Assembly: GCA_016699465.1 (NCBI GenBank) | Contig: CP064977.1 | Location: 685,739-743,115 of the forward strand | DNA from: Candidatus Campbellbacteria bacterium | GTDB taxonomy: Bacteria; Patescibacteriota; Minisyncoccia; Phycocordibacterales; EsbW-18 | Length of the DNA stretch: 57,377 nucleotides | Direction of reading: 5' to 3' | Notes under the pieces: generated by a model | Database searches by the model: none | Seen by the model: the letters and a program-made list of their open reading frames with translations, nothing else | Told to the model about the DNA's origin: nothing | Translations under genes and position numbers: made by a program | Shown here: piece by piece, positions 6,088 through 55,696 of the stretch | Layout of the letters: each line of letters begins with the position of its first letter | How positions within the stretch are numbered: position 1 is the first letter of the stretch

Positions 6088-6232
6088 GTGTGGTAGTGTA
6101 CCCCGTTAGAAACAGGAAACCAAATGGTTTTTTAGTTCGTATACAATCACGGGTTCTGCTTGGTGTGTGTTCATATATACCACCGACCGAAGAGTCGACC
6201 ATCCTTTTTTAAGGTGCTATAGTATCTCGCAT

Positions 6233-8464
6233 ATGCAACGTATTCTTGAAAAATGTAGTATTGCAGGTTTGTTACTTATCCCGTTTGTGCCGTTTGTGGT
6301 GACGGGATCGATGTTTTTTCCATTTATCACAGGTAAGGCGTTTGTCTTCCGTGGTATTGTCGGTATTGTAGTGGCTTTGTGGTGTGCTCTTATGGTGTAT
6401 GACACATCATATATTCCAAGAAAGAACCCAATACTTTTTGCGGTCCTTGGTTTTTTTGGAATTGTCGCACTTGCAGATATTTTTGGCGTACACTTTGTGC
6501 GAAGTATGTGGAGCAACTTTGAGCGCATGGAGGGGTTGGTTACCTTTGTATATCTCTGCGCATTTTTTGTAGTGAGTTCAACAATACTTACACGTACCAA
6601 TATGTGGAAGGCGTTTTGGAATACATCGATTGTCGCCAGTTGTATGGTTGGGGTATATGCGCTTTTTCAGGTCGCAGGAAGTATTGCAATTTCACAGGGA
6701 GGAGCGCGTGTTGACGCAACGCTCGGCAATTCCATTTACTTAGCAGTCTACATGCTCTTTCATATTTTTGTGACGTTGTGGTTTTTGTACCAAAATCGCT
6801 TGTCACGAGCACGTTCTGTTGTGTATGCACTGGCCATCCTCATACAGTTCATCGCGCTTTTTTACACGGGAACTCGAGGTACAATGCTCGGTCTTTTTGC
6901 AGGATTAGGACTTACTGCACTTCTTATTGCGTGGCGTGGGAAAGAACATCCTCGTCTACGCAGGTTGTCTCTCGGTTTTATTGTGGTCGTTCTTGTGTTA
7001 GTTGGAGGTTTTGTTATTGTTCGCAAATCATCTTTTGTACAAGGGAATGAAATGCTACAACGTTTCGCGAATGTTTCTTTTGTTGACGGAACAGTCCAGT
7101 CACGTCTTGTGTTGTGGAGTGGTATTGCAAAAGATGGATTTCTCGAGCGACCGGTACTGGGGTGGGGGCAAGATAACTTTATTGTGGTATTTGGAAAATA
7201 CTATGATCCACGAATGTATCAACAAGAGCCGTGGTTTGATCGTGCCCACAGTGTGTTCTTTGATTGGCTTATCTCGGCGGGTGTTCTAGGACTTTTGTCA
7301 TACCTCTCGTTGTTTGGTGTAACGGTGTTTCTTCTTTGGCGTCCAACAACAGATCTCTCGATTCCAGAACGAGCTCTTTTTACGGGCTTACTCGCGGGGT
7401 ATTTCGTACATAATATTTTTGTGTTCGATAATCTCATTAGTTACATTTTCTTTTTCCTTTTTATTGGTTTTGTTGAATCATTTTCTTTTGCTTATCAACG
7501 CAACGGTATACAAGAAAAAAGTATTCGTGAGGGCGCGCTCATTCAAGATGTGTTTCTCCGTAAGGGTACAGCAGTGCTTGGCGCGGGAGTAGTTTTGTTT
7601 CTTGTGTACACAACAACTGTTCCGCATATTGTTGCATCACAGTCGCTCATCAAGGGACTTATTGCTATTGGAAACGGCGAAGATCCTGCAGTTGCGTTTC
7701 CATTGTTTGAGCGAGCATTACAAGATCCTGTAGGAAGAGATGAAACGCGGTTGCAGTTGAGTCGCGTCGCGTTTACTGTTGCCCAAAGTTCCGCTTCTGA
7801 GGATAGTAAGCAAAAGTATCTTGCTCGTGCATATGCAGAGGCACAAAAGGCGGTGCAGGAAGATCCACTGAATACTCGACCAAAATATTTCCTTGCTACG
7901 TTTGAAGCGCGTCTTGGAAATTTTGATGCGGCCATTCGTCTTTTTGAAGAGTTGTTGGCCATTAATCCTGATAGACAAATGTTTTTGAGTGAGTATGGAA
8001 CAATACTTCAATTAAAAGGTGAGGGTATGCGAGCGCGAGATGTGTTTCAAACATTAGTACGACTTGCTCCGACCGATCAGGGGTATGCAGTTCGGTATAT
8101 TGTTTCTTTATTCAACCTGAAAAACCCTTCGGATGCATTACTTTTTGCACGAGAAACATTTGGCACAACAACGGAAAAACTTATTTCAGAAGAATACTAT
8201 CGTGGAAAAGTAACAAGCTATAACGATGCGGTGGAGAGTATTGGTTTTCAAGTTACTCGTGGTGAGCTTCTCAAGAATAAAAATACGGATGAGTATATTT
8301 CAAAAATGAATGAATTAACGAGTGCACATCGAACGGCTGAGGCAGTGCAACTTCTCGATGATGCTATTCGTGTAGACGTAACGATCGCACGTAATGCTCA
8401 AGTAATACGAGAAGCGCTTCAAAAAGGAAACGAGGTATCGATGTCGGCAACAACTACACACTAA
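6233..8464 (+). CDS. O-antigen ligase/polymerase-like (Wzy_C-type) polytopic membrane protein with C-terminal TPR region
   Basis: ORF 6167..8464, start trimmed to ATG 6233, which lies 9 nt after an extended -10 (TGcTATAGT, 6215-6223). Multi-TM N-terminal half with a YTGTRGTMLGLFAGLGL loop typical of Wzy_C/O-antigen-ligase proteins. The soluble C-terminal ~270 aa carries TPR-like repeats (AIRLFEELLAINPDRQ..., ARDVFQTLVRLAPTDQ...). Confidence 0.65.
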   Translation: MQRILEKCSIAGLLLIPFVPFVVTGSMFFPFITGKAFVFRGIVGIVVALWCALMVYDTSYIPRKNPILFAVLGFFGIVALADIFGVHFVRSMWSNFERMEGLVTFVYLCAFFVVSSTILTRTNMWKAFWNTSIVASCMVGVYALFQVAGSIAISQGGARVDATLGNSIYLAVYMLFHIFVTLWFLYQNRLSRARSVVYALAILIQFIALFYTGTRGTMLGLFAGLGLTALLIAWRGKEHPRLRRLSLGFIVVVLVLVGGFVIVRKSSFVQGNEMLQRFANVSFVDGTVQSRLVLWSGIAKDGFLERPVLGWGQDNFIVVFGKYYDPRMYQQEPWFDRAHSVFFDWLISAGVLGLLSYLSLFGVTVFLLWRPTTDLSIPERALFTGLLAGYFVHNIFVFDNLISYIFFFLFIGFVESFSFAYQRNGIQEKSIREGALIQDVFLRKGTAVLGAGVVLFLVYTTTVPHIVASQSLIKGLIAIGNGEDPAVAFPLFERALQDPVGRDETRLQLSRVAFTVAQSSASEDSKQKYLARAYAEAQKAVQEDPLNTRPKYFLATFEARLGNFDAAIRLFEELLAINPDRQMFLSEYGTILQLKGEGMRARDVFQTLVRLAPTDQGYAVRYIVSLFNLKNPSDALLFARETFGTTTEKLISEEYYRGKVTSYNDAVESIGFQVTRGELLKNKNTDEYISKMNELTSAHRTAEAVQLLDDAIRVDVTIARNAQVIREALQKGNEVSMSATTTH

Positions 8465-8717: not shown

Positions 8718-8835
8718 AGGTGGTGTGGTGTGCTTACAAATGAGAAATGGGAGTTGTCCACATTTTCATTAAAAACCTTTTTAAATAAGGGTATATCAGG
8801 ATACAATGTACCTGTTGGAAGGTTTAAATCACGAA

Positions 8836-11800
8836 ATGAAAAACCCGACTTTTTTGCGTTATGTTACAACAGTAGTGCTCGCTCTTTTTCTTGTATGCGG
8901 AACGCTTTTTGCGCATTCAGCACACGCCTTTTCTCTTGATTCTTTTTTGAATACGTCGTCACCACGTTTTGTTCATACAAAGGAAGTCGCAGCATCTTGG
9001 TGGAATGCGTATGCCTACACAGCAAATGCAACTACTGGTCTTGTTGTTGAAGGATTCTTAGCGGTATGTACAGAATCACCAGCTATCCTCGCGTCTCTAC
9101 ACACGACTATTTCAGATATTCTCACAGACGGCGCTGAAGGTGTAATCACAACACTTGTGTATGATACGGTTCCGTTTATTCAAACTGTACAGGATATCAA
9201 TACAACCGTTGCCAATATCTACATCACGGGCGCGCAAGAAACATTTGCATTAGTTGGTGTATATGGTCGCACCGTGTATGAAGCAAATGCATTCGCATCA
9301 AGCATTCTTACAAACGGAGCAGAAGGTGTTATTACACTACTTGCAAACAACGCCACAACATTCGCACGAACACTTTTTGACATCAATACAACCGTTGCCA
9401 ATATCTACATCACGGGCGCACAGGAAACATTTGCATCGATTGCAACGTACGTTGTCAATGTGCGTGATGCAAATATGGCGGTGTCCGCTCTTTTGCTTGC
9501 AGGAGCAAATGATGTTGTGACGACAACTGAAAATAGTATGCATGCTCTTGCGCGCGCACTTCACCAAACGGCGCGTAGTATGCGTGTGGAAGGGCACACT
9601 ACATTTGCCGCAGTATACTCAAGTCTCGTACCGCCACAAGCAACATCAACACAAACACCAGCACCAACACTCTTCCAGAGAGCGCGAACCGCCCTCCGTT
9701 CATGGCTTGGTATCACCACAACGGTCATCACACTACCATCACTTCCAACACCACCAGCACCCGTTCAGCAAGTAACACAGACAACCATCCAAGGACCAGA
9801 ACGCATCATCGAAACACATACGTTCACCAACAACGTTCTCGGTCTTTCACAAGCAGATCTCACGAATGCAATTGCAGGACTTCGTCTCGAGTTGTTGCCA
9901 AAGATTAAACAGGCAATGGGTTCACCAACATACAACCCTCCCGACACCGCATACCTCGAACTCTCAGGTGGCACGCTCACTGGAAATCTTGCAGGCACCT
10001 CACTCACACTCACCAATAATCTTTCTGTTGCAGGTACTTTTGCTGATAGCAGTGGTGATGTGGGAACGGATGGCTACATTCTTCAAACAACAGGCACGAG
10101 TACCAACTGGGTTCCTGCAGCATCATTGAGTGTGACAGGAGATGGTACCTTCTCCACCACATCCGCTGACTACTTCATCACAAGTTCTTCAACCATCGCC
10201 CATGCATCAGGTGTTGCACTCGGCAACGTACTCCAGTGGGACGGAAGTGCCTGGGTTTCAGCCGCGACATCAACGCTTGGCATTGGTACATCGCAGTGGG
10301 TAACAAATAGTTCGGATATTTACTACTCAACAGGCAACGTCGGCATCGGTACTACGTCCCCGTATGCAAAACTTTCTGTCGTTGGTCCGGTTGTGGCTGA
10401 ATCATTTAATGCAACATCAACAACGGCGACGAGTACGTTTGCGGGTGTTTTGTATACTGCGGGTTCTTTTGCGGATAGTACGGGGAGTAAGGGGGTAAAT
10501 GGCATGGTTCTTCAATCAACAAACACTGGTGTGCAGTGGGTGGCCACATCATCACTCGGCATCTCGGGCATCACCGACCACGGACTACTCACCGGACTTT
10601 CTGACGATGACCACACACAATACGCGTTACTTGCCGGACGTTCTGGTGGGCAGACGCTTGTTGGAGGAACGGGGGCAACAGACGATCTCGTTCTTGATGG
10701 TTCTGCCGCAACGGCGGGAAGCGTGACCGTGAGCGAAGACGGAGATATCAATGTGGGTGGATTATTGAGTGTTCGACATAGTAATGTTTCTGCCCCGTAC
10801 TATTCTCTTGCGACGTTTGGATCTGCAAGTACTGGCTATTTGAGTATTTCGCAAGGGGATTCGGTCGGTAGGATTCTCAACTTTTTTTACGGATCTGATA
10901 TGGGGCTTTCGAATGGAAGTAGCCTCTTGTGGTCAGACAGTACAGACGGAGCATTGGGAACAGTAGATACCGGCCTCTCCCGTATCTCTGCCGGAATCCT
11001 CGGTGTTACAAACGGTTCTTCTGGTGGTGGTGCGCTGTATGCAAATTATTTTAACGCAACATCCACAACTGCGACGAGTACGTTTGGGGGACGCATCATC
11101 TCTCCAGGTATCGTTGGGGGAATAACTGGATCTGGGATACTGACACTTGATGGAGACCAGACGGTGGCTGGAAGTGCGTCGGTTGCTGCTAACGGAGTGA
11201 TTTCGTATAATGCGACGCAAAACACTGGGTCAATATCGATCGGGCCTATGAACTACGAGAACCTAGGTAGTGTTGCCTATACCATTGGCGCAGATGCTCG
11301 GTCTGGTCAGCAGGGGATGTTTCTTGCTACTGGTGGGTCGCTGGCGAATCTGGCGATAAGGAACCTGTTCCTTGGTACGGGGAGTACAGATTGGGGTGGA
11401 ACGTTTGTCGCCTTGATTGCTGATGGTGCGAATGCTCTTGCACAACGCAACAGCACGAACGCTCAGAATTTCCGTTTGTATGGCACGTACACTGACACAA
11501 ATAACTATGAACGCTTCACCGCTTCAACAACACAAGGAACCGGTGTTGTGCTCGGCATGGAAACCGCGGGAACAGGTGCGGATAATCTGCATATCATTCT
11601 TTCCCCGGCAGGAACAGGCAACGTCGGCATCGGTACTACGTCCCCGTATGCAAAACTTTCTGTCGTTGGTCCGGTTGTGGCTGAATCATTTAATGCAACA
11701 TCAACAACGGCGACGAGTACGTTTGCGGGTGTTTTGTATACTGCGGGTTCTTTTGCGGACAGTACGGGGAGTAAGGGGGTAAATGGCATGGTTCTTCAAT

Positions 11801-14697
11801 CAACAAACACTGGTGTGCAGTGGGTGGCCACATCATCACTCGGCATCTCGGGCATCACCGACCACGGACTACTCACCGGACTTTCTGATGATGACCACAC
11901 ACAATACGCGTTACTTGCCGGACGTTCTGGTGGACAGACGCTTGTTGGAGGAACGGGGGCAAGCGATACGTTGACTCTTGATGGAAGTCTTGGAACATCG
12001 GGCGCTCTTGTTGTGGGTGCATCGGGAGCATTGCTTGCTCCCGATGGAAATGCTACAACACCTGCGTATTCGTTTGCGAATGCGACGGGAATCGGAATAT
12101 ATAACGGTGGTGGAAACGAGTTGTCGTTTGATGGTGGATCACATCTGTTTACTATCAATGGCTCTAATCTTCTCAACCTTGTTTCAAACAAGGTGAATTT
12201 GGGTAGTGCTGTTGGTCTCAACTGGGGCACGATAGGCGGCTCTATGGATATCGGCCTCTCCCGTATCTCTGCCGGAATCCTCGGTGTTACAAACGGTTCT
12301 TCTGGTGGTGGTGCGCTTATGGCGGACTATCTCTCTGCAACATCAACAACGGCGACGAGTACGTTTGCGGGTGTTTTGTATACTGCGGGTTCTTTTGCGG
12401 ACAGTACGGGGAGTAAGGGGGTAAATGGCATGGTTCTTCGGTCAACAGGCACTGGTGTACAGTGGGCGGCAACGTCAACACTCGGGATTTCGGGCGGGCT
12501 TGGTACGGGGGGGCCGTCGTTTTCGGTCAATAAAAATACTACGAATCAAACCGTGACGGCAAACGTTGCAACGCTTCTAACGTGGAGCACAGAAGTGTTT
12601 GACACAAACAATAACTTTAGTACATCAACAGGAAAGTTCACCCCGACAGTTGCTGGAAAATATATCATCAGTGGTACTGTATATTGCCCCGGGGCGACAA
12701 ACTGTTATGTGTATATCTACAAGAACGGTTCTCTATACTTGCAGGGTGGAGAGGGTAGTGCCTCGAGCGTTGTTGCGAATATCTCGGCGGTTGTCGACAT
12801 GAATGGTTCAACCGACTACGTTGAGCTCTACGGACTCACCGGGGCAACGACCATTTCGGGTGCCGTTGATTCTACCCAATTTTCAGGTGCACTCTTGGCA
12901 CCAATCGATGCCGACGGTGGTGGATGGACGACAAATGGGTCGTACACCTATTTGACCAATGCCACAAATCTGGTTGGTGTTGGGTCAACATCTCCTTCTG
13001 CAAGATTTATCGTCAAAGGGAGCGGAACTGCTACAAACGCCTTTCAGGTTGTTTCGTCAGCAGATGTAAATATTCTTACTGTGTCGGATCTTGGATTTGT
13101 TGGTATCGGCACCACATCTCCCTATGCGAAGCTTTCCGTGGTCGGTGATGTCGCCATCGCAAGTGGCGGTCTCTATGACAACAACGCTTCACGAGGATCG
13201 AGTGGTATGGTGCTCCGGTCGACCGGCACTGGCTTGCAGTGGGTCGCAACATCGACACTCGGGATTTCGAGTGGTTCATCGCAGTGGACGACGAGCGGAT
13301 CGAATATTTATTACAGCACCGGAAATGTCGGCGTCGGCGTAACATCGCCAACATCTGCGGCGCTTGAGATCCAAGGGACGAATGGTACCGGAGCCGTTGC
13401 TCCGTTTGCACTATTTGCACAAGGAGGCAACGGCGGATCAGATGCCACGAACGGGTATAAGGGAGGGGGCTTCTCATTTATCGGAGGGGATGGTGGAGGA
13501 GCTTCTGATGGAACTGACAGCTTCGATATTTCTGGAGGTGATGGTGCTGACTTCGTTGTAACGGGCGGTGCTGGTGGTAGTGCGGATGGTGGGACAACTT
13601 CTACTGGAGGCGCCGGTGGAAGCGTCATCATTAATCCCGGCGCTGGAGGGGTTGCAACTGGCAGTAATCCACAAAACGGCGCTACGGGCAATGTCCTTCT
13701 TTCATATGATCGCGGCAACGTGGGTATAGGAAGCATCAGTAATTCGTCCGCAATGTTGTATTTCTATGATTCGAACCAGGGCATTAAACAATCGAGCGGG
13801 TCGCTTCAGTTCCTCACCGGAGGGAGCCCGCGTTTCTATGTCGCATCGGGTGGAAACGTCGGCGTTGCAACATCGTCTCCGTGGCGGACATTCGCGGTGA
13901 CCGGCACTGTTGGTTTTTCGAGCACGCTCTCTGCTGAAGCTGGGAGTGACAACTATCTTTGTATCGACCCGGTGACGTATGAAGTAACGAATGGCGGGGC
14001 AAACTGTGGTGCGTCGTCGGAGCGTTTCAAAGAGAACATCGTCGATCTTGCCTATGGGCTTGATGAAGTAAAGGCACTGCGCCCCGTCAATTTCACCTAT
14101 AAGAGAGAGATTACGCCGGACGGTTCCACACATATCGGACTTATTGCCGAAGAGGTCGCTCAGATTGTTCCGGAGGTTGTTGAATTTGATGAGGACGGAA
14201 AGCCCGAATCGGTGTCGTACGACAACCTCGTTGCGCTTCTCATTAAGGCGGTGCAGGAGCTCTCTGATAAGGTTGATGTGCTCCTCGCGTCGGCGGGACA
14301 ATCAATTTCTGGTGGTGTGGCACGCTTTGTTGATGCGGTTGTTGACCGACTTACCGTGGGAAGTGCTGAGGAACCATCGGGGATCACGCTTTTTGATGAT
14401 GTAACGGGCGAACCGTATTGTTTGTCGGTGCACAACGGTGCCACGGTGACCCAGGCGGGTGCGTGTGACACGCAACCTTTGGATGAACCAAACGGTGACG
14501 GCTCGGGTGCTGTTTCGGCTTCTGGATCTACCACAAGTGATCCTGTTGTTGACGAACCGACTACCGATGAACCAGGTGGTGATGAACCGGTCGTCGATGC
14601 CACGACGCCAGAGAATCCTCCCGCCGAGGAAGCCCCGGCGGTCGTTGAGCCTTCCAACGAGACTCCTGCCGAGAGTGTTGGAGATGTGGCCCCGTAG
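8836..14697 (+). CDS. Giant secreted Ser/Thr/Gly-rich fibre protein with C-terminal peptidase-S74 intramolecular-chaperone (tail-fibre/endosialidase type) domain
   Basis: ORF 8806..14697, start trimmed to ATG 8836 (MKNPTFLRYVTTVVLALFLVCGTLFAHSAHA, signal-peptide-like). Internal protein repeats, a Gly-rich block (GGNGGSDATNGYKGGGFSFIGGDGGG...). S74-type motif SSERFKENIVDLAYGLDEVKALRPVNFTYK...GLIAEEVAQIVPEVV...SVSYDNLVALLIKAVQEL. Confidence 0.85.
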   Translation: MKNPTFLRYVTTVVLALFLVCGTLFAHSAHAFSLDSFLNTSSPRFVHTKEVAASWWNAYAYTANATTGLVVEGFLAVCTESPAILASLHTTISDILTDGAEGVITTLVYDTVPFIQTVQDINTTVANIYITGAQETFALVGVYGRTVYEANAFASSILTNGAEGVITLLANNATTFARTLFDINTTVANIYITGAQETFASIATYVVNVRDANMAVSALLLAGANDVVTTTENSMHALARALHQTARSMRVEGHTTFAAVYSSLVPPQATSTQTPAPTLFQRARTALRSWLGITTTVITLPSLPTPPAPVQQVTQTTIQGPERIIETHTFTNNVLGLSQADLTNAIAGLRLELLPKIKQAMGSPTYNPPDTAYLELSGGTLTGNLAGTSLTLTNNLSVAGTFADSSGDVGTDGYILQTTGTSTNWVPAASLSVTGDGTFSTTSADYFITSSSTIAHASGVALGNVLQWDGSAWVSAATSTLGIGTSQWVTNSSDIYYSTGNVGIGTTSPYAKLSVVGPVVAESFNATSTTATSTFAGVLYTAGSFADSTGSKGVNGMVLQSTNTGVQWVATSSLGISGITDHGLLTGLSDDDHTQYALLAGRSGGQTLVGGTGATDDLVLDGSAATAGSVTVSEDGDINVGGLLSVRHSNVSAPYYSLATFGSASTGYLSISQGDSVGRILNFFYGSDMGLSNGSSLLWSDSTDGALGTVDTGLSRISAGILGVTNGSSGGGALYANYFNATSTTATSTFGGRIISPGIVGGITGSGILTLDGDQTVAGSASVAANGVISYNATQNTGSISIGPMNYENLGSVAYTIGADARSGQQGMFLATGGSLANLAIRNLFLGTGSTDWGGTFVALIADGANALAQRNSTNAQNFRLYGTYTDTNNYERFTASTTQGTGVVLGMETAGTGADNLHIILSPAGTGNVGIGTTSPYAKLSVVGPVVAESFNATSTTATSTFAGVLYTAGSFADSTGSKGVNGMVLQSTNTGVQWVATSSLGISGITDHGLLTGLSDDDHTQYALLAGRSGGQTLVGGTGASDTLTLDGSLGTSGALVVGASGALLAPDGNATTPAYSFANATGIGIYNGGGNELSFDGGSHLFTINGSNLLNLVSNKVNLGSAVGLNWGTIGGSMDIGLSRISAGILGVTNGSSGGGALMADYLSATSTTATSTFAGVLYTAGSFADSTGSKGVNGMVLRSTGTGVQWAATSTLGISGGLGTGGPSFSVNKNTTNQTVTANVATLLTWSTEVFDTNNNFSTSTGKFTPTVAGKYIISGTVYCPGATNCYVYIYKNGSLYLQGGEGSASSVVANISAVVDMNGSTDYVELYGLTGATTISGAVDSTQFSGALLAPIDADGGGWTTNGSYTYLTNATNLVGVGSTSPSARFIVKGSGTATNAFQVVSSADVNILTVSDLGFVGIGTTSPYAKLSVVGDVAIASGGLYDNNASRGSSGMVLRSTGTGLQWVATSTLGISSGSSQWTTSGSNIYYSTGNVGVGVTSPTSAALEIQGTNGTGAVAPFALFAQGGNGGSDATNGYKGGGFSFIGGDGGGASDGTDSFDISGGDGADFVVTGGAGGSADGGTTSTGGAGGSVIINPGAGGVATGSNPQNGATGNVLLSYDRGNVGIGSISNSSAMLYFYDSNQGIKQSSGSLQFLTGGSPRFYVASGGNVGVATSSPWRTFAVTGTVGFSSTLSAEAGSDNYLCIDPVTYEVTNGGANCGASSERFKENIVDLAYGLDEVKALRPVNFTYKREITPDGSTHIGLIAEEVAQIVPEVVEFDEDGKPESVSYDNLVALLIKAVQELSDKVDVLLASAGQSISGGVARFVDAVVDRLTVGSAEEPSGITLFDDVTGEPYCLSVHNGATVTQAGACDTQPLDEPNGDGSGAVSASGSTTSDPVVDEPTTDEPGGDEPVVDATTPENPPAEEAPAVVEPSNETPAESVGDVAP
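10329..10678 (+). repeat. 350-bp intragenic repeat, copy A
   Basis: Matches 11613-11962 except for the 3 mismatches I found (T/C, C/T, G/A), all synonymous. Confidence 0.9.
11613..11962 (+). repeat. 350-bp intragenic repeat, copy B
   Basis: See copy A. A third partial copy starts near 12337. A further 66-bp identical pair lies at 10971-11036 and 12252-12317. Confidence 0.9.
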
Positions 14698-14856
14698 GAA
14701 CCTGCGAATGTCTCAACAGGAACAACGGGTTGATGATTATTTCTATACAATTGTATACACCATGAAAATGTTTTCTTGAGAGAGGGGTGGTGTATACTAT
14801 GTGTCGTCGTAGATGTGTGTTGTATATTTAAAATATTAAAAAATAATATATTCAGT

Positions 14857-15357
14857 ATGAAGAAAATAACAGTAACTTCTATTATCGCCATGGTTCTTCT
14901 TGGGGGACTTTTTGGTGGTTGGGCATGGTACACGTATAACACGTTTCTTGGTCCAGATAGTGCCCTCATGGGCAACTCAACATATGTTGCCGTTTTTTTG
15001 ACAACAAATCAGGTTTTCTTTGGAAAAATTGAGTCCATGAATTACCGAGACGTTGTTTTGACAGATACATTCTATTTACAACAAGGAGGAACGACTGCAA
15101 ATCCAGAATTTATTTTGCAAAAAAGTGGTAGTGAACTTCACGCACCAGAGGATACGATGTTTATTAATCGAGACCACATTTTGATTATTCAACCTCTCAA
15201 GCCCTCGTCTCAAGTGATTACATCTATCAAGCAATATAAAGAATCGTTGACGAAGTCGGCTACACAAGAAACGGCAGGTAAAAAAGCAGCTGCGCCAGAG
15301 CCGGCTGTACCTGCTTCACAAGATGACACAACAGCAGAACCGCAGGTTCTTGAATAA
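14857..15357 (+). CDS. Membrane-anchored hypothetical protein
   Basis: ORF 14776..15357, start trimmed to ATG 14857 (MKKITVTSIIAMVLLGGLFGGWAWY, an N-terminal TM). Low-complexity Ala/Pro/acidic tail. No family recognised. Confidence 0.6.
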   Translation: MKKITVTSIIAMVLLGGLFGGWAWYTYNTFLGPDSALMGNSTYVAVFLTTNQVFFGKIESMNYRDVVLTDTFYLQQGGTTANPEFILQKSGSELHAPEDTMFINRDHILIIQPLKPSSQVITSIKQYKESLTKSATQETAGKKAAAPEPAVPASQDDTTAEPQVLE

Positions 15358-33913: not shown

Positions 33914-33976
33914 TCCCGTTAGAGGTTTATTATATTCACGAAAATACTTTTTTTGTACATAACCTATGTAGTATTA
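33914..33976 (+). mobile_element. MITE-like element, truncated copy 2 (left arm only)
   Basis: ATGAA|TCCCGTTAGAGG... with internal similarity to copy 3 (TTATT..TATTCACGAA). The right arm is missing. The next gene starts at ATGAAA 33976. Confidence 0.4.
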
Positions 33977-36738
33977 TGAAATACCCTTTTAAAAAAAACA
34001 CACTTTCTAACCGGATGAAACTGTTTTCACGTATCTGTATCTTTGTTGGCGCACTTCTTGCGGTGGTTCCATTCGTGTCACAGGCCGCTACAGCTTTGGA
34101 TTCTGTGCCTGACGCGGTAAAGAGCAAGTACGCGTTTGATGGTCCTGTTTATGCTGTTGTTAGTGACGGAGCCACGTTGTATGTGGGGGGGTCTTTTACC
34201 GCGGTAACACCGAGACAAATTGATCCACCCTCTTTCTTGAGAAATAATCTCGCAGCAATTGATCTTTCGACGTATACCCTAACATCATTTGCACCGAGTG
34301 TGGGTGGTGGTGTTGACGCCCTCGCTCTTTCGGCGGACGGTGAAACGCTGTATGTGGGTGGTAGTTTTAGTTGTGTCGGAGCGCTGGATGAATTTGATGT
34401 GTGCACAGGTGTTACACAAAATAAAATTGCCGCCTTCGATACTGCGGGTTCCGGAACACTACTTCCATTTAACCCCGACATCTCCGGGGGAGACGTTGCC
34501 ACACTCACACTTTCATCGGGGGCTACCCCAACACTCTATGTGGGAGGCGATTTTTCGCAGGTTGGAGCCACAACACGCAACACTATGGCTGCGTTTGATA
34601 TGACTGACAACGTGGGCACGCTTTTATCGTTTAATCCTGATATAAGTACCGACGTCAATGATAGTGTTCTTTCCCAAGACGAATCAACAATATACGTCAC
34701 GGGCACTTTCTCAACCGTTAATGGGGGCATGCCACAGGAGTATCTTGCTGCTCTCGATGCTGTTTCTGGAGAAAACCAAGACTGGGGGGTTTCTTTGGAT
34801 GGTGGTGGTAATGTTCTTAAAATTTCTTCTGATGGAAATACGCTCTATGTGGGAGGAAGTTTTTCTTCTTTCATGAGACAGTCGGGCGAAGGAGTTCCGT
34901 TTGATGAAGATACAAATGAGGCTCTCGCGACGTTTCCGATAGTTCGAACCAATCAGGGTGGGGGCGGGGGCGGGGATTCCACTATATATGCTGTGATTCC
35001 CGATGGTGATGGTGGGTGGTATATCGGCGGAAGCTTTACGCATGTGGGGACGACGTCTCAGGGGCGTCTTGCGCACATCACATCAGGAGGGCTCTTCGAC
35101 GATACTTTTACACCAGATGTTAATGGGACAGTCTATGCTCTCGAACTCTCTCCGGATGGATCAACACTGTATATCGGTGGAAACTTTGACACCGTTGATG
35201 GAGAAAGTCGAGATTATTTTGCTGCCCTTGATACAAGTGATGGCTCGGTAACTGTGCTCAATCTCTTTTTCGACGGTATTGTACGAGACTTGAAATTTTC
35301 TTCGGATGGGAGTGAATTGTATGTTGCCGGAGGATTTTCAGAAGTTGCCGCATCTTCGCGACGAGGTGTCGCCGCTCTTGATATGTTGGACGAAGGGTCA
35401 CTTCTTCCTTTTGATGCCGATTTGTATGGGTCTGGATATGCATATGCACTCGAGCTTTCACCAGATGATTCTGTGCTCTATGTTGGTGGTGATTTTTCGG
35501 CTGTAAAATATGGAGCGGGACCCGGAACCTTGAGAAACAATAGTGCTGCCTTTACTACCGCGGATGATGGTGCGGTGACAGCATTTAATCCAAATGCCGA
35601 TGGTATTCTTCGTACGCTGGCTCTCTCGGGGGGTGGTGACACGCTCTACGCCGGAGGAGAGTTTCTTACCATAGGAGGAGAAGCTCGGCATGAATTTGCA
35701 GAGCTCGACATGACGACGGGTAGTTCAACGGGTCTCCTTGATGCCAATATTGTGGGCGAAGTCGGAACAGTGCAATCCATTGCGGTGTCTGGTGATGGTG
35801 CAAGTGTGTACATCGGTGGTGCGAATTTTTCCGAAATCGGTGGTGCGTCGCGCGCGTATTTTGGAGAGATTGATGCAAACACGGGGCTTGCAACGAATTT
35901 CAACCCGTCATTCAACGATGAGGTTAGAGCTATCGCGGTTGATTCTGTTGGGGGTACCGTATACGTTGGTGGTAGTTTTACAAAACATGATCCTGAATCG
36001 TCTCCGTATCTTCTTGCAATAAACCTGGCAGATAACTCACACGTAACGTCTTTTGCCCCGATTCTTGATGCCGATGTTTACGCTCTCGCGCTTTCTTCGG
36101 ACGATACAGTCCTCTATGCGGCGGGATATGCGGTTGATGGAGATGGTGCGATCGTGCCAGCTTTTCTCAAAGGTATTGATACGAGCGATGGAGATGCCAC
36201 CGCCTTTGCACCGGATGACATGAAAAGCATCTACGCGATGGCACTTAGGTCGGATGACTCTGAGCTCTTTGTCCCAAATTTTGATCAAAATGTGACCAAC
36301 AATACCAACGTACTTGTCTTTGATGCGGACGGAGATGTGTCACTTGACGTTACTGCACCCGTTATCACACTTCTTGGTAGTTCAGATATTGAACTTACTG
36401 TTGGTAGTACATACACGGATGCCGGTGCTACTGCTGAGGATAATGTGGATGGTGATATTACTGCGGACATTGAAGTTGGTGGAGATGTCGTTAATCCATC
36501 TGTTGTTGGTATCTATGTTATTACGTACAACGTCCAGGATAGTGAAGGTAATTCTGCGACGGAGGTGACGCGAACAGTTACTATAGTGAGTCAAGAAGAG
36601 GGTTCTGGTGGTAGCTTGACGGGAAGAAGTGGAGCGGTTGGTAGTGGATCTGGAAAAGATCTTCGGTTTCTTCTTGAAAAATTAACTGAAGTGTTACGAC
36701 AATACCTCATGTTGTTGCTTGCAGAAAAACAACAATAG
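33976..36738 (+). CDS. Secreted delta-60-repeat/beta-propeller protein with C-terminal Ig-like (DUF5011-type) domain
   Basis: N-terminal TM/signal segment. At least 12 repeats of the type TLYVGGSF..V.G..R..LAA.D...G....FNP. Then PVITLLGSSDIELTVGSTYTDAGATAEDNVDGDIT...VGIYVITYNVQDSEGNSA. Confidence 0.75.
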   Translation: MKYPFKKNTLSNRMKLFSRICIFVGALLAVVPFVSQAATALDSVPDAVKSKYAFDGPVYAVVSDGATLYVGGSFTAVTPRQIDPPSFLRNNLAAIDLSTYTLTSFAPSVGGGVDALALSADGETLYVGGSFSCVGALDEFDVCTGVTQNKIAAFDTAGSGTLLPFNPDISGGDVATLTLSSGATPTLYVGGDFSQVGATTRNTMAAFDMTDNVGTLLSFNPDISTDVNDSVLSQDESTIYVTGTFSTVNGGMPQEYLAALDAVSGENQDWGVSLDGGGNVLKISSDGNTLYVGGSFSSFMRQSGEGVPFDEDTNEALATFPIVRTNQGGGGGGDSTIYAVIPDGDGGWYIGGSFTHVGTTSQGRLAHITSGGLFDDTFTPDVNGTVYALELSPDGSTLYIGGNFDTVDGESRDYFAALDTSDGSVTVLNLFFDGIVRDLKFSSDGSELYVAGGFSEVAASSRRGVAALDMLDEGSLLPFDADLYGSGYAYALELSPDDSVLYVGGDFSAVKYGAGPGTLRNNSAAFTTADDGAVTAFNPNADGILRTLALSGGGDTLYAGGEFLTIGGEARHEFAELDMTTGSSTGLLDANIVGEVGTVQSIAVSGDGASVYIGGANFSEIGGASRAYFGEIDANTGLATNFNPSFNDEVRAIAVDSVGGTVYVGGSFTKHDPESSPYLLAINLADNSHVTSFAPILDADVYALALSSDDTVLYAAGYAVDGDGAIVPAFLKGIDTSDGDATAFAPDDMKSIYAMALRSDDSELFVPNFDQNVTNNTNVLVFDADGDVSLDVTAPVITLLGSSDIELTVGSTYTDAGATAEDNVDGDITADIEVGGDVVNPSVVGIYVITYNVQDSEGNSATEVTRTVTIVSQEEGSGGSLTGRSGAVGSGSGKDLRFLLEKLTEVLRQYLMLLLAEKQQ

Positions 36739-53150: not shown

Positions 53151-53273
53151 TCCCGTTAGAAATCACTCATGTATGTTCGTGCCCAATATTCAAAAAACGT
53201 CGATATATTATTCGTATACTCACGAAGGTGTGATAACAATGGAAACGCACCACGTTTCTAATTTCTAACGGGA
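53151..53273 (+). mobile_element. MITE-like inverted-repeat element, copy 3 (123 bp) between pheS and pheT
   Basis: TCCCGTTAGAAAT ... ATTTCTAACGGGA. The 14-bp perfect inverted repeat (53150-53163 vs 53261-53274) is flanked by a direct TGAA (53147-53150 and 53274-53277). Confidence 0.5.
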
Positions 53274-55696
53274 TGAAAGTTTCACGTGCATGGCTTCAAA
53301 CATTTTTTGAAAAACCACTTCCCGAAGTGAGTGAGCTTGAACATGTTCTCACATTCGGTGCATTTGAAATTGAGGGAACAGAAAAAGTTGGAGAAGATAC
53401 CGTGCTAGATGTGAAAGTGTTACCTAATCGTGCACACGATTGTTTGTGCCATCGGGGTATTGCAAAAGAATTCTCTGTTTTGTGCTCCATACCGTTATCG
53501 CACGATCCGCTGTCGGGTCCGGTTCCTTCGTTTGAAAAAAATGGAGTTCTACACGTTTCTGTTGAAAAAGAAAATGCGTGTCCTATATACCAAGCAGCTC
53601 TTGTGAAGGGTATTACCGTTGGCCCATCTCCGAAGTGGCTCTCAGAGCGACTCGAAACACTTGGTCAACGTTCAATAAACAATGTTGTTGATGCGACAAA
53701 CTTTGTCATGCTCGAACTCGGACAACCACTCCATGCATTTGATGCACAAAAGTTGGGAGATGCGGATGGCGCAAAATCAATTCGTGTGCGTATGGCACGT
53801 GCGGGGGAGAGTATCACTGTTCTTGGGGGCACAACGTACGAACTAGATGAAACTATTCAACTCATTACTGATGCATCAGGAGATACACCACTCGCAATTG
53901 CGGGTATTAAAGGTGGAAGTCAGGCAGAAGTGGATACAACAACGGTAGACATTGTTTTGGAATCAGCGAAGTTTCATCCAACACTCACGCGCAAGGCGTC
54001 GCAAAAATTAAAATTGCGCACTGATGCGTCACATCGTTTCGAAAATGAGATTCCCGATGAATTACCACTGTACGCACTTCAAGCTCTTGTTGCGCTTATT
54101 GTCGATGTGGCAGGAGGGCGCGTTAGTGGATATGGAGGTTTTGAGAGGGCTCGTGCGGCACTTCCATACAAGATCGGCATTTCATCACGTGAGGCAAATA
54201 AACTTCTTGGAACAGCTCTGTCAGACACCGAGCTCTCACAGATTTTTGATCGGTTTTCATTCTCGTATACAAAAATAGAAAATCCACGAGAGGTGATTGT
54301 GCAAAAAGCTCGAAGTGTCATTGGTGCTCCGTATAAGCGTATGGCACGAATTCGATATGATACCCCAGAGAGTTTCAACTGCTCGTCCTTGACTGCATGG
54401 TGTGCTATTGAGGCGGGATTTTCACTTGGTGTTGCGCGTATTGCAATTGATCAATATGCGTATCTCGATGAAATTACTGAGAGTGAACTCCAGCCGGGCG
54501 ATTTTGTATTTACTAACACAGAAGTGGTGCGTACTATTGACGGAGAAAATTATTCCACAGCCTTGGACAGAATGGTCAAAGACGAAGCAATACGGACACA
54601 TACACTTGAATATGTCCCAGGAACTGACGTGGGGCACGGTGTTGATCATATGGGTATCTATGTCGGTGATGGAAAAGTTGTTCACGCGTCATCCGATCTC
54701 GGTGGAGTTGTTGAAGAAGACCTTGCAACAAGTGCTATTTTTGCAAAAGAAAAATGGTATCGCCGACTAGTGTCTGATACGACGCCAAGATTCTCGGTTA
54801 CGGTGCCATTTGAGCGTATGGATATGCGTTTTAGCGCTGACGTGTGTGAAGAAATTGGACGAGTGTATGGCTACGAACATGTTCGCGCGCAAGACTTACC
54901 TACTGCGTCACACCGTGTTGAAGTAAATCCTATTTTCGTCGCTCAAGAAGTTGTACGTAAGGTTCTCGGTGAATGTGGATTTTTTGAAGTATATTCGTAC
55001 TCATTGTGTGAAAAAGGTGATATACAACTTGCAAATGCACTCGCAAGTGATAAGGCTTTTGTGAGAAGCTCGCTTGCATTGGGTATTGGTGAATCGCTCG
55101 CAAAGAATGAATACTATGCGCCGCTCCTCGGTCTTTCGGATGTAAAGATTTTTGAGATTGGAAACGTATACAATGCAACAGGAGAACATTTGCGCGTGTG
55201 TCTAGGTGTGCGTCCTCTTACTCAAGCAAAAAAATCTGAGAAGACAAACGCAATGCTTCTTGAGGCTAAAGAAAAACTCGAGTCGGCATTTGGCGTTGAT
55301 GTGAACGAATATATTTCTGAAGAGACGCTCGAGTTTGATCTTGGTGTTATTGCACAAACACATATCCTCACACAGCCGGAGTTTGCACCCGTTGCACAGG
55401 CTACTCAGTTTGTACCGATGTCATCGTATCCGTTTGTGTTGCGTGATATTGCAGTGTGGATTCCTGATGGTACAGGAAAGGGAGAAGATATTGTGGCTCT
55501 AGTAAAAGAGAAAGGTGGCACACTTTTTGTTCGTGCTGATTTATTTGATACGTTTACCAAAGATGGTCGCACATCGTACGCGTACCACCTTGTATTTCAG
55601 TCACGTGAAAAAACACTTTCAGATGAAGATATTAATAGCATTATGAATGCGGTCACGGAAGCATTGAATGCGCGTGATGGTTGGGTAGTACGATAG
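53273..55696 (+). CDS. pheT: Phenylalanyl-tRNA synthetase beta subunit carrying an inserted NlpC/P60-like domain
   Basis: B1 (MKVSRAWLQTFF...), B3_4 (NVVDATNFVMLELGQPLHAFD), a B5-like segment, core (FSADVCEEIGRVYGYEHV), and FDX-ACB C-terminus (FVLRDIAVWIP). The insert at aa 337-505 has GAPYKRM, FNCSSL, PGDFVF, HMGIYVGDGKVVHASS. Confidence 0.9.
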   Translation: MKVSRAWLQTFFEKPLPEVSELEHVLTFGAFEIEGTEKVGEDTVLDVKVLPNRAHDCLCHRGIAKEFSVLCSIPLSHDPLSGPVPSFEKNGVLHVSVEKENACPIYQAALVKGITVGPSPKWLSERLETLGQRSINNVVDATNFVMLELGQPLHAFDAQKLGDADGAKSIRVRMARAGESITVLGGTTYELDETIQLITDASGDTPLAIAGIKGGSQAEVDTTTVDIVLESAKFHPTLTRKASQKLKLRTDASHRFENEIPDELPLYALQALVALIVDVAGGRVSGYGGFERARAALPYKIGISSREANKLLGTALSDTELSQIFDRFSFSYTKIENPREVIVQKARSVIGAPYKRMARIRYDTPESFNCSSLTAWCAIEAGFSLGVARIAIDQYAYLDEITESELQPGDFVFTNTEVVRTIDGENYSTALDRMVKDEAIRTHTLEYVPGTDVGHGVDHMGIYVGDGKVVHASSDLGGVVEEDLATSAIFAKEKWYRRLVSDTTPRFSVTVPFERMDMRFSADVCEEIGRVYGYEHVRAQDLPTASHRVEVNPIFVAQEVVRKVLGECGFFEVYSYSLCEKGDIQLANALASDKAFVRSSLALGIGESLAKNEYYAPLLGLSDVKIFEIGNVYNATGEHLRVCLGVRPLTQAKKSEKTNAMLLEAKEKLESAFGVDVNEYISEETLEFDLGVIAQTHILTQPEFAPVAQATQFVPMSSYPFVLRDIAVWIPDGTGKGEDIVALVKEKGGTLFVRADLFDTFTKDGRTSYAYHLVFQSREKTLSDEDINSIMNAVTEALNARDGWVVR

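What the first reader, a model, noticed from the sequence alone, without database searches (positions are those of the whole stretch)
8836..14697. 1953-aa cellular tail-fibre-like surface protein with S74 intramolecular chaperone
The protein has a signal-peptide-like N-terminus and a helical repeat region (two ~62-aa units, ...DINTTVANIYITGAQETFA...). Long Ser/Thr/Gly-rich beta-type repeats include GLSDDDHTQYALLAGRSGGQTLVGGTGA. A Gly-rich block follows, then a clear peptidase-S74 self-cleaving chaperone module (SSERFKENIVDL...LIAEEVAQIVPEVV...DNLVALLIKAVQEL). That module is known from phage tail fibres, tail spikes and endosialidases. No other phage genes are nearby. In an ultra-small, probably episymbiotic cell this is a candidate trimeric host-attachment fibre.
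Basis: partly seen in the sequence, partly recalled or inferred. Interest (0 to 1): 0.62.

Follow-up and report, generated by a model that had tools for sequence, protein, structure and literature searches.

The report
Phage-like surface fibre of a CPR bacterium
An ultra-small (Patescibacteria/CPR) bacterium carries a chromosomal gene for a 1953-residue exported fibre built from phage-tail-fibre parts; it resembles the prey-recognition fibres of the predator Bdellovibrio, so it is a plausible, untested candidate for how these tiny bacteria recognise other cells.

Summary
ORF 8836-14697 (+) encodes 1953 aa with one N-terminal signal/anchor helix. It also has two 62-aa repeats, a duplicated 117-aa module, a Gly-rich block and a C-terminal Peptidase_S74 chaperone (PF13884, E 7e-13). 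The catalytic pair S1727/K1732 is invariant in relatives. I also found an internal gC1q domain and a conserved 46-aa Cys-stapled mini-domain after S74.

All other genes in the 57-kb window look cellular. The gene sits between a Wzy_C-TPR gene and murB-secA, as in four related MAGs. The nearest relatives lack it there, so it is an accessory insertion. Its distal modules have raised GC3, and public metagenomes show differently joined cassettes.

A profile of its stalk plus S74 matches crystal structures of Bdellovibrio "mosaic adhesive trimer" (MAT) fibres: Bd2133 at E 5e-14 and a second MAT entry, probably Bd3182, at 3e-9. It lacks the MAT N-terminal domain.

Hundreds of Patescibacteria proteins share the architecture and are annotated "tail fiber domain-containing". 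I found no paper describing them.

Verdict: a MAT-like, S74-matured cell-surface fibre, a new variant of a known kind. Trimerisation, cleavage, surface retention and host binding are inferred, not shown.

The parts
8780..8807 (+). Promoter-like site TTTAAA-16-TACAAT, just upstream of ATG 8836.
   Evidence: Consensus scan only, so weak. It would favour ATG 8836 over ATG 8806 as the start, in agreement with the start on record for the identical protein.
8836..14697 (+). Fibre gene, 1953 aa plus stop codon.
   Evidence: An identical protein is on record.
8836..8928 (+). Signal peptide or signal anchor, aa 1-31, with an AHA|F site.
   Evidence: Read from the sequence. It is the only hydrophobic segment above the TM threshold (Kyte-Doolittle 1.97). 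There is no lipobox.
8929..9705 (+). N-terminal ectodomain, aa 32-290. It is Thr/Ala/Val-rich and contains the two 62-aa-spaced repeats (nt 9193-9288 and 9379-9474). It is the presumed envelope-proximal module.
   Evidence: Repeats. Only P0005 and P0007 share the domain. The AF2 model is helical but at pLDDT 35, so the fold is unresolved. GC3 is 0.35, like the host genes.
9706..9930 (+). Pro/Thr linker and conserved 'neck', aa 291-365 (GPERIIE...GLSQADLTNAIAGLRLELLPKI).
   Evidence: Nearly invariant in alignment A3. The motif recurs in distant family members (sequences). Helix 339-360 appears in the low-confidence model.
9931..12519 (+). Beta-rich shaft, aa 366-1228. It carries recurring modules: NVGIGTTSPYAKL capping-loop-like motifs, ATSTTATSTF, G..G.VL.S.G.G..W, DDDHTQY and GLSRISAGILGVTNG.
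   Evidence: Motif map. The modules are shared with phage contigs, a Pseudobdellovibrionaceae MAG and other bacteria.
10329..10678 (+). Copy 1 of the 350-nt near-identical intragenic repeat (aa 499-615).
11613..11962 (+). Copy 2 of the repeat (aa 927-1043). The three differences are all at third codon positions.
   Evidence: The differences are not specific to adenines, so this is not a DGR template/variable pair.
12520..12897 (+). Internal gC1q/TNF-like jelly-roll domain, aa 1229-1354.
   Evidence: PF00386 scores 28.9 bits against a cut-off of 23.7 on the isolated domain. The family profile hits 21 distinct PDB sequences, nearly all named C1q-family molecules (C1q, adiponectin, C1QL, collagen VIII/X NC1, cerebellin), E down to 2e-10.
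12898..14013 (+). Distal shaft, aa 1355-1726. It includes the Gly-rich block (about aa 1525-1610, nt 13408-13665) and the conserved Cys-stapled tip ...LCIDPVTYEVTNGGANCGA.
   Evidence: Alignment A1. The profile of this stalk matches Bdellovibrio MAT crystal structures 8ond, 8ojn, 8oml and 8ol4.
14014..14349 (+). Peptidase_S74 intramolecular chaperone, aa 1727 to about 1838. Predicted self-cleavage lies before S1727, with K1732 as the base. A long helix follows.
   Evidence: AF2 core pLDDT is 90-95. Foldseek matches 7dc3 (E 2e-4, TM 0.65) and 3gw6.
14338..14475 (+). 46-aa mini-domain, aa 1835-1880 (LTVGSxEEPSGITLFDDVTGEPYCLSVHNGATVTQAGAC), with an invariant Cys pair.
   Evidence: Invariant columns. 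Three strands at pLDDT about 80. 1438 cluster representatives match at E<=1e-3 and 686 at E<=1e-10. No Pfam model covers it.
14476..14694 (+). Acidic, Pro-rich, disordered tail, aa 1881-1953 (net charge -18, no Lys or Arg).
   Evidence: Low-complexity tails or DUF5011 Ig domains occupy this place in relatives.
6167..8464 (+). Upstream neighbour, a Wzy_C plus TPR polytopic protein. It is the flank of the insertion site, not shown to act on the fibre.
   Evidence: The same gene lies directly before murB-secA in relatives that lack the fibre.

Best explanation
The gene encodes a cell-surface fibre of a Patescibacteria (Paceibacteria-type) cell, built like the mosaic adhesive trimer (MAT) fibres of Bdellovibrio.

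Inferred sequence of events:
1. The N-terminal signal/anchor helix takes the chain through Sec.
2. Outside the cell, the C-terminal S74 domains of three chains associate and nucleate folding of the intertwined beta-helical shaft from the C-terminal end.
3. S1727, activated by K1732, then cuts the chain before S1727. This releases a 227-aa fragment made of the chaperone, the mini-domain and the acidic tail.
4. A mature fibre of about 1,695 aa per chain remains. Its N-terminal module stays at the envelope and its distal shaft points outwards. Scaling from Bd3182 gives very roughly 100 nm.

The gC1q knob and the beta-helical modules are the likely ligand-binding parts. The most probable role is recognition of, or adhesion to, the surface of another cell, the presumed host.

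Shown here: domain content, catalytic residues, predicted fold of the chaperone, cellular context, family distribution, mosaicism, and profile homology to MAT structures. Inferred: export, trimer formation, cleavage, surface retention and the ligand.
For: - S74: PF13884 E 7e-13. SSERFK aligns with SDERLK of a solved tail fibre. S1727 and K1732 are invariant in 16 relatives. The AF2 core has pLDDT above 90 and matches the MyRF ICA domain and the endosialidase chaperone.
- MAT homology: the stalk+S74 profile hits 8ond, labelled bd2133 (E 4.8e-14). It also hits four entries labelled 'Cell wall surface anchor family protein': 8ojn/8onb/8onc (3.3e-9), 8oml, 8ol4/8onf and 8on4. The MAT paper ties 8onf to Bd2439; I take 8ojn to be Bd3182, which the tool did not label. 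In that paper MAT fibres are on the predator surface, S74 self-cleavage is shown for Bd3182, TNF-like tips exist, and one MAT binds prey glycans (PMC10769870).
- gC1q domain.
- Export signal: a single N-terminal helix with an AxA site. Phage fibres have no signal peptide (established knowledge).
- Cellular locus: the same flanks occur in four related MAGs, and the window has no phage genes.
- Family: 426 homologues, and nearly all those that carry a name are Patescibacteria MAGs with a C-terminal S74.
- Signature typical of a receptor-binding protein: accessory presence, raised GC3 in distal modules, and cassette joints in public metagenomes.
Against: - There is no experimental or expression evidence. 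No RNA run holds the gene.
- The conserved ~130-aa N-terminal domain shared by all 21 Bdellovibrio MATs is absent (hhalign probability 0.3%).
- The N-terminal domain could not be modelled (pLDDT 35). If the signal peptide is cleaved, nothing shown here holds the fibre on the cell.
- The gC1q domain is internal, not at the tip. The residues just before the cleavage site are conserved rather than variable. Where specificity lies is therefore unclear.
- The conserved mini-domain on the fragment predicted to be discarded has no explanation.
- The host organism and its lifestyle are inferred only from its lineage.
Confidence: 0.65

Rival explanations
1. It is a surface fibre whose role is not host recognition. 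It could be an envelope coat or spacer, an adhesin for biofilm matrix or abiotic surfaces, or a decoy or shield against the bacterium's own phages.
For: The anatomy fits as well as for the best explanation. The residues at the mature tip are conserved across the family rather than variable. An unchecked note of this scan reports another surface-filament cassette (cohesin-dockerin) 12 kb beyond the window, so attachment need not depend on this fibre. The modules are shared with phage fibres, which would suit mimicry.
Against: The characterised homologues (Bdellovibrio MATs) act in prey recognition and handling (PMC10769870). Accessory distribution, cassette exchange and a lectin-type gC1q knob are more typical of specificity determinants than of a structural coat.
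Confidence: 0.2
2. It is a released (secreted) trimeric lectin-like fibre that is not retained on the producer. The signal peptide is cleaved and the product diffuses or binds other cells.
For: There is a canonical AxA signal-peptidase site. There is no LPXTG motif, lipobox, second TM segment or known wall-binding domain.
Against: P0007 shares this N-terminal ectodomain (41% identity) and has a true TM helix preceded by a cytoplasmic HTH, so this module sits at the membrane in a relative. MAT fibres are found on the predator surface (PMC10769870).
Confidence: 0.08
3. It is a phage tail-fibre gene, either a prophage remnant or a moron, that functions in virions.
For: PHROG tail-fibre families match the C-terminus. 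Individual modules occur in many viral contigs at 35-80% identity over short stretches. The distal GC3 is raised. Unchecked notes of this scan report prophages elsewhere in the genome.
Against: It has a Sec signal sequence. The 57-kb window has no phage structural, packaging, lysis or integration genes. The chromosomal position is fixed between Wzy_C-TPR and murB in four related MAGs. No cultured-phage record covers more than 9% of the protein. The N-terminus is unrelated to virion-attachment domains.
Confidence: 0.04
4. It is an assembly artefact. The repeats were collapsed, expanded or chimerically joined, so the 1953-aa frame does not exist as such.
For: There is a 350-nt repeat at 99% identity within the gene. 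Related MAGs break or carry N-runs inside their copy. Logan contigs break at the repeat borders.
Against: The frame is open and co-linear with full-length relatives of 1380-2070 aa. Contigs from an independent run span the junctions from unique sequence into repeat copy 2 and out of repeat copy 1 (X1 records 2-4). The contig is 811 kb long.
Confidence: 0.03

Closest known systems
Bdellovibrio bacteriovorus MAT (mosaic adhesive trimer) fibres, S74 subgroup, e.g. Bd3182 (Caulton et al., Nat Microbiol 2024, PMC10769870)
   Same: Both are chromosomal, signal-peptide-bearing, long mosaic fibres of a bacterium that lives on other bacteria. Both have a beta-helical stalk with NVGIGTxxP...L-type capping-loop motifs, and both end in an S74 chaperone with the S-x-x-x-x-K dyad. 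TNF/C1q-like domains occur in both families. The family profile matches MAT crystal structures by sequence (8ond at 4.8e-14, 8ojn at 3.3e-9).
   Different: The conserved ~130-aa beta-rich MAT N-terminal domain is absent here, although other Patescibacteria family members have it. This protein has a different N-terminal module. It is about twice as long, its gC1q knob is internal, and S74 is followed by a 46-aa Cys mini-domain and an acidic tail. The host lineage is Patescibacteria, which is not in the paper's list of MAT-bearing organisms.
Phage tail fibres and tailspikes with a C-terminal intramolecular chaperone: K1F endosialidase (3GW6), T5 pb1 (4UW8), S16 gp37 (6F45), and tail fibre 8JOV
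   Same: The S74 fold and catalytic dyad are shared, as is the logic of C-terminal nucleation of a triple beta-helix followed by self-cleavage. The shaft modules are shared too (DDDHTQY, gC1q, capping loops).
   Different: This protein has a signal peptide. It has no virion-attachment N-terminus and no phage gene neighbourhood. In the family sample the distance from the catalytic Ser to the C-terminus is mostly 200-400 aa, with a few as short as 100-125 aa. In phage chaperones the domain is about 150 aa by my recollection, which I did not check here.
Myelin regulatory factor (MyRF) ICA domain (7DC3)
   Same: It is the best structural match of the predicted chaperone core (Foldseek E 2e-4, TM 0.65). 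It is another cellular, non-viral use of S74. Some relatives of the window protein also combine an HTH domain, a TM helix and S74.
   Different: In MyRF, S74 lies between the DNA-binding domain and the membrane anchor, and cleavage frees the transcription factor. Here S74 is at the far extracellular end, and this particular protein has no DNA-binding domain.
gC1q/TNF-superfamily heads, e.g. C1q, adiponectin, collagen VIII/X NC1 and Bacillus BclA
   Same: Both are trimeric jelly-roll domains carried on a fibrous stalk. The sequence-profile match is significant.
   Different: Here the domain is embedded mid-fibre between beta-helical segments rather than terminal on a collagen stalk.

Membership tests
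Peptidase_S74 / C-terminal intramolecular chaperone domain | Profile match above the curated threshold. | tested here: met
   PF13884, aa 1727-1782, 49 bits against a cut-off of 22, E 7.3e-13.
Peptidase_S74 / C-terminal intramolecular chaperone domain | Catalytic Ser with Lys at +5 (SDxxxK-type dyad). | tested here: met
   S1727-S-E-R-F-K1732 aligns with SDERLK of PDB 8jov. Both residues are invariant in 16 family members.
Peptidase_S74 / C-terminal intramolecular chaperone domain | Chaperone fold. | tested here: met
   AF2 core pLDDT 90-95. The top Foldseek hits are 7dc3 (MyRF ICA) and 3gw6 (endosialidase chaperone). This is a monomer model only.
Peptidase_S74 / C-terminal intramolecular chaperone domain | Autoproteolytic release after trimer folding. 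| not testable with these tools
   This needs expression of wild type against S1727A.
MAT (mosaic adhesive trimer) superfamily | N-terminal signal peptide. | tested here: met
   n-h-c organisation with AHA|F, and a single hydrophobic segment. No dedicated predictor was available.
MAT (mosaic adhesive trimer) superfamily | Conserved beta-rich domain of about 130 aa right after the signal peptide. | tested here: not met
   The profile of this domain was built from Bdellovibrionales loci and Patescibacteria members (A2). Against aa 1-420 hhalign gives probability 0.3%.
MAT (mosaic adhesive trimer) superfamily | Intertwined beta-helix/prism shaft with capping loops. | tested here: met
   The sequence profile of the pre-S74 stalk matches MAT structures 8ond, 8ojn, 8oml and 8ol4. 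NVGIGTTSPYAKL-type motifs occur at aa 500, 928, 1496 and 1673, with a further copy visible by eye at aa 1420. The trimeric state itself was not modelled.
MAT (mosaic adhesive trimer) superfamily | S74 or an alternative adhesive tip at the C-terminus. | tested here: met
MAT (mosaic adhesive trimer) superfamily | Location on the cell surface and binding to a target-cell epitope. | not testable with these tools
   No culture, proteome or transcriptome of this organism is available, and no RNA run holds the gene.
Phage tail fibre (virion component) | Encoded within a phage structural gene module. | tested here: not met
   The 57-kb window contains only genes that look cellular. The chromosomal synteny is conserved in relatives.
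C1q domain family (PF00386) | Profile match above the curated threshold. | tested here: met
   The match is 22.9 bits within the whole protein but 28.9 bits against a cut-off of 23.7 for the isolated domain. The family profile hits 21 distinct PDB sequences, nearly all C1q-family molecules.
Trimeric autotransporter adhesins | C-terminal YadA-type beta-barrel membrane anchor. | tested here: not met
   No such Pfam hit. The C-terminus consists of S74, the mini-domain and a disordered acidic tail.

The most novel reading that the evidence does not exclude
These S74 fibres may be the Patescibacteria counterpart of phage receptor-binding proteins. On this reading they form an accessory, cassette-swapping family that draws modules from a pool shared with phages and predatory bacteria, and that sets which host cells an epibiont can attach to. 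The conserved C-terminal cassette (S74, coiled coil, Cys mini-domain) would be a lineage-specific maturation module. The relatives that carry a cytoplasmic HTH_17 domain and a TM helix at the N-terminus would couple fibre engagement outside the cell to gene regulation inside it.
Probability: 0.15. Interest if true: 0.85.

Novelty: new variant of a known kind. Interest (0 to 1): 0.55.

Why it matters
How Patescibacteria recognise and hold on to their hosts is an acknowledged open question. A 2024 review names type IV pili and unnamed predicted adhesins as the known candidates (PMC11665869).

This protein belongs to a large Patescibacteria family that databases label only as 'tail fiber domain-containing'. 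I found no description of it in the open literature. Here it is tied by profile homology to the Bdellovibrio MAT fibres, which have been tested experimentally.

That link gives concrete hypotheses that can be tested: S1727-dependent maturation, trimeric fibre formation, and gC1q or beta-helix ligand binding. It also gives a marker for host-range comparisons across MAGs.

The work also exposes two uncharacterised features of the family. One is a widespread 46-aa C-terminal mini-domain. The other is the HTH-TM-fibre architecture of some relatives.

Tried and rejected
1. N-terminal domain fold. The AF2 model from a 3-sequence alignment had pLDDT 35, so only 'mostly helical' can be said, and weakly. 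A region-restricted homologue search found just one relative.

2. The adjacency to Wzy_C-TPR is conserved in four related MAGs. But the same Wzy_C-TPR gene sits directly before murB-secA in relatives that have no fibre (L133, L136, L139-L141). Synteny therefore gives no support. The idea is not excluded.

3. DGR target. The three repeat differences are T/C, C/T and G/A at third codon positions, not adenine-specific, and the window has no reverse transcriptase. Rejected.

4. Trimeric autotransporter or LPXTG/lipoprotein anchoring. No barrel domain, sortase motif or lipobox was found.

5. Expression. No RNA run holds the gene.

6. Copy count of fibre genes in the same genome. The genome search and the fetch from genomes were shut, so I could not count paralogues or inspect the reported prophages myself.

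7. Whether the mini-domain is strictly tied to S74. Pfam found no S74 in 7 of 8 tested carriers. By eye, most of the carriers I printed have a degenerate S74-like segment plus a coiled coil before the mini-domain. The question is unresolved.

8. Literature. Seven full-text searches gave no paper that links S74/PF13884 or tail-fibre-like proteins with Patescibacteria. Subscription journals are not covered.
Full report
**Observation.** The + strand has an open frame from 8806. The start on record, which is also the conserved one, is ATG 8836, and the stop is at 14695-14697, giving 1953 aa.
- The N-terminus (MKNPTFLRYVTTVVLALFLVCGTLFAHSAHA|FS) has the n-h-c layout of a Sec signal with an AxA site. 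It is the only segment of TM-grade hydrophobicity.
- The GLSDDDHTQY... module occurs twice. It lies inside a 350-nt duplication (10329-10678 = 11613-11962) whose copies differ at three third-codon positions.
- Pfam gives Peptidase_S74 at aa 1727-1782 (E 7.3e-13, 49 bits against a cut-off of 22). PHROG tail-fibre C-termini match as well.

**Context.** Upstream lie a GT47-like gene, a methyltransferase, GT4, GT2, a flippase on the opposite strand, and a Wzy_C-TPR protein. Downstream lie a small TM protein, then murB, secA, a VTT-domain gene, a PF04020 gene, MYG1, obg, gatB and gap. Pentose-phosphate genes with a split transketolase, ribosomal proteins, and pheS and pheT follow. I saw no phage structural, packaging or integration gene.
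- SecA is 79% identical to that of a Campbellbacteria MAG, and its other close matches are Paceibacteria-type MAGs. The identical protein sits on an 811-kb contig. An ultra-small CPR host is therefore well supported.
- Unchecked notes of this scan place prophages about 288 kb before the window and more than 42 kb beyond its end. Both are far from this gene.

- *gC1q domain.* Residues 1229-1354 form a gC1q/TNF-like domain. The isolated domain scores 28.9 bits against PF00386 (cut-off 23.7). A profile of 15 family copies hits 21 distinct PDB sequences, nearly all C1q-family molecules, at E values down to 2e-10.
- *Catalytic dyad.* In SSERFK, S1727 and K1732 align with the SDERLK dyad of a solved tail fibre. 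Both are invariant in a 16-sequence alignment.
- *Chaperone fold.* An AF2 model of aa 1640-1953 gives the chaperone core at pLDDT 90-95. A long helix follows, then a three-stranded mini-domain at pLDDT about 80 and a disordered acidic tail. Foldseek ranks the MyRF ICA domain (7dc3, E 2e-4, TM 0.65) and the endosialidase chaperone (3gw6) first.
- *Mini-domain.* The 46-aa mini-domain (LTVGSxEKPxGITLFDExTGEPYC...GxC) is a family of its own. It has 1438 cluster representatives at E<=1e-3 among 1.84 billion proteins. In the best 150 it lies typically 100-350 aa from the C-terminus, in records from short fragments up to 7453 aa.
- *Mini-domain and S74.* Pfam sees no S74 in 7 of 8 tested carriers. 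By eye, most of the carriers I printed have a degenerate S74-like segment and a coiled coil before the mini-domain.

**Family.** The whole-protein search returned 426 homologues. Nearly all those with a name are Patescibacteria MAGs of 1100-3300 aa with a C-terminal PF13884 domain.
- The interiors are mosaic: C1q, right-handed beta-helix, DUF5011 Ig, LVIVD, SGNH and Kelch domains. NCBI names them 'tail fiber domain-containing protein'.
- The N-termini come in at least three kinds:
  - a signal peptide plus the module seen here, shared only with P0005 and P0007;
  - a signal peptide plus an INYQGRL... beta-rich domain that I also find in Bdellovibrionales fibres;
  - a cytoplasmic HTH_17 domain plus a TM helix.
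- A conserved 'neck' (GPERxxE...LxxAIxGLRxELxP) joins these N-termini to the shaft.

**Link to known biology.** A profile of the pre-S74 stalk plus S74 hits the Bdellovibrio MAT crystal structures by sequence. It matches 8ond, labelled bd2133, at 4.8e-14. It also matches entries labelled 'Cell wall surface anchor family protein': 8ojn/8onb/8onc (3.3e-9), 8oml, 8ol4/8onf and 8on4. The MAT paper assigns 8onf to Bd2439. I take 8ojn to be Bd3182, but no output labelled it.
- Caulton et al. (PMC10769870) describe 21 MAT fibres in strain HD100, 13 of them ending in S74 with SDxxxK.
- All 21 have a signal peptide and a conserved N-terminal domain of about 130 aa.
- The paper shows S74 self-cleavage for Bd3182, surface localisation, TNF-like and lectin tips, and glycan binding by one member.
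- Its table of MAT proteins from other organisms lists no Patescibacteria.
- The window protein fails one MAT feature, the N-terminal domain (hhalign probability 0.3%). I therefore file it as a MAT-like variant rather than a plain member.

**Evolutionary behaviour.** The gene lies between Wzy_C-TPR and murB in four related MAGs: L050, L052, L002 and L134.
- The nearest SecA relative (L133) and several others have Wzy_C-TPR directly before murB-secA with no fibre. The gene is thus an accessory insertion, and its adjacency to the glycan locus says nothing about function.
- P0005 and P0007, which share the window's N-terminal module, sit at a different conserved site, after rpsL-rpsG-fusA.
- L002 combines a different N-terminal domain with internal segments almost identical to the window's.
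- GC3 rises from 0.35 in the N-terminal 300 codons, which is host-like, to 0.45-0.51 in the distal modules. Nine neighbouring genes lie at 0.33-0.42.
- Wastewater, river and sludge metagenomes hold pieces at 95-99% identity. The 3' cassette 13903-14706 is joined there to different upstream sequences and to a different downstream flank. These are short-read contigs, so chimeric joints are possible.
- Single modules recur in many viral contigs, but no cultured-phage record covers more than 9% of the protein.

**Mechanism (inferred).**
1. Sec exports the chain.
2. S74-driven trimerisation proceeds from the C-terminus.
3. Cleavage before S1727 releases a 227-aa fragment.
4. The mature fibre stays on the cell through its N-terminal module and presents the gC1q knob and beta-helical modules to a ligand on another cell.

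Three points remain unexplained: how the N-terminus is held if the signal peptide is cut, why a conserved mini-domain rides on the released fragment, and where specificity lies given the conserved tip.

**Verdict.** It is a new variant of a known kind, apparently undescribed for Patescibacteria in the literature I could search. It is a useful lead for the open question of host recognition.

Noticed in passing
Relatives P0007, P0013, P0024, P0038, P0045, P0112, P0006, P0102 (N-terminal ~100 aa): Many family members begin with a cytoplasmic HTH_17 (PF12728) domain, scoring 14-31 bits with two above the cut-off. A single TM helix follows, then the same neck, fibre and S74. This is a membrane-tethered DNA-binding-type domain fused to an extracellular fibre. 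The window protein lacks it.
   Followed up: partly
window 14338-14475 (aa 1835-1880): A 46-aa Cys-stapled mini-domain (GITLFDExTGEPYC...GxC) defines a family without a Pfam model. It has 1438 cluster representatives at E<=1e-3. It lies near the C-terminus of large surface proteins and is often followed by DUF5011 Ig domains or low-complexity tails.
   Followed up: partly
window 6167-8464, with L133, L136, L139, L140, L141: The Wzy_C+TPR gene directly upstream of murB-secA is a widely conserved arrangement in Paceibacteria-type genomes. The fibre gene is inserted into this junction in only a subclade.
   Followed up: partly
window 53273-55696 (pheT): The PheT beta subunit shows an NlpC/P60 Pfam hit (37.5 bits) at aa 364-416, between the B3_4 and B5 domains. 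This could be an inserted peptidase-like segment.
   Followed up: no
window 33976-36738: A second large putative surface protein of 920 aa, with Rax2/DUF5122 beta-propeller repeats and a DUF5011 Ig-like domain. The same Ig domain follows the mini-domain in many fibre relatives.
   Followed up: no
window 14857-15357: A small protein with an N-terminal TM helix (MKKITVTSIIAMVLLGG...) lies between the fibre gene and murB. A 125-aa gene occupies the same place in L052 and none does in L050. It has no family hit above threshold.
   Followed up: no
window 12373-13903 and 13121-13903 (runs X1, X5, X7): Public metagenome contigs join the 3' S74 cassette (13903-14706, 97-99% identical) to different upstream sequences. 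They all diverge from the window 9 nt after the stop codon. This suggests the cassette circulates among differently built fibre genes.
   Followed up: partly
L006, L019, L021, L022, L025-L034, L036, L042 (one Pseudobdellovibrionaceae MAG): At least 15 loci in a single predatory-lineage MAG carry the DDDHTQY shaft module at 45-55% identity to the window protein. This fits a large MAT repertoire that shares modules with Patescibacteria fibres.
   Followed up: partly
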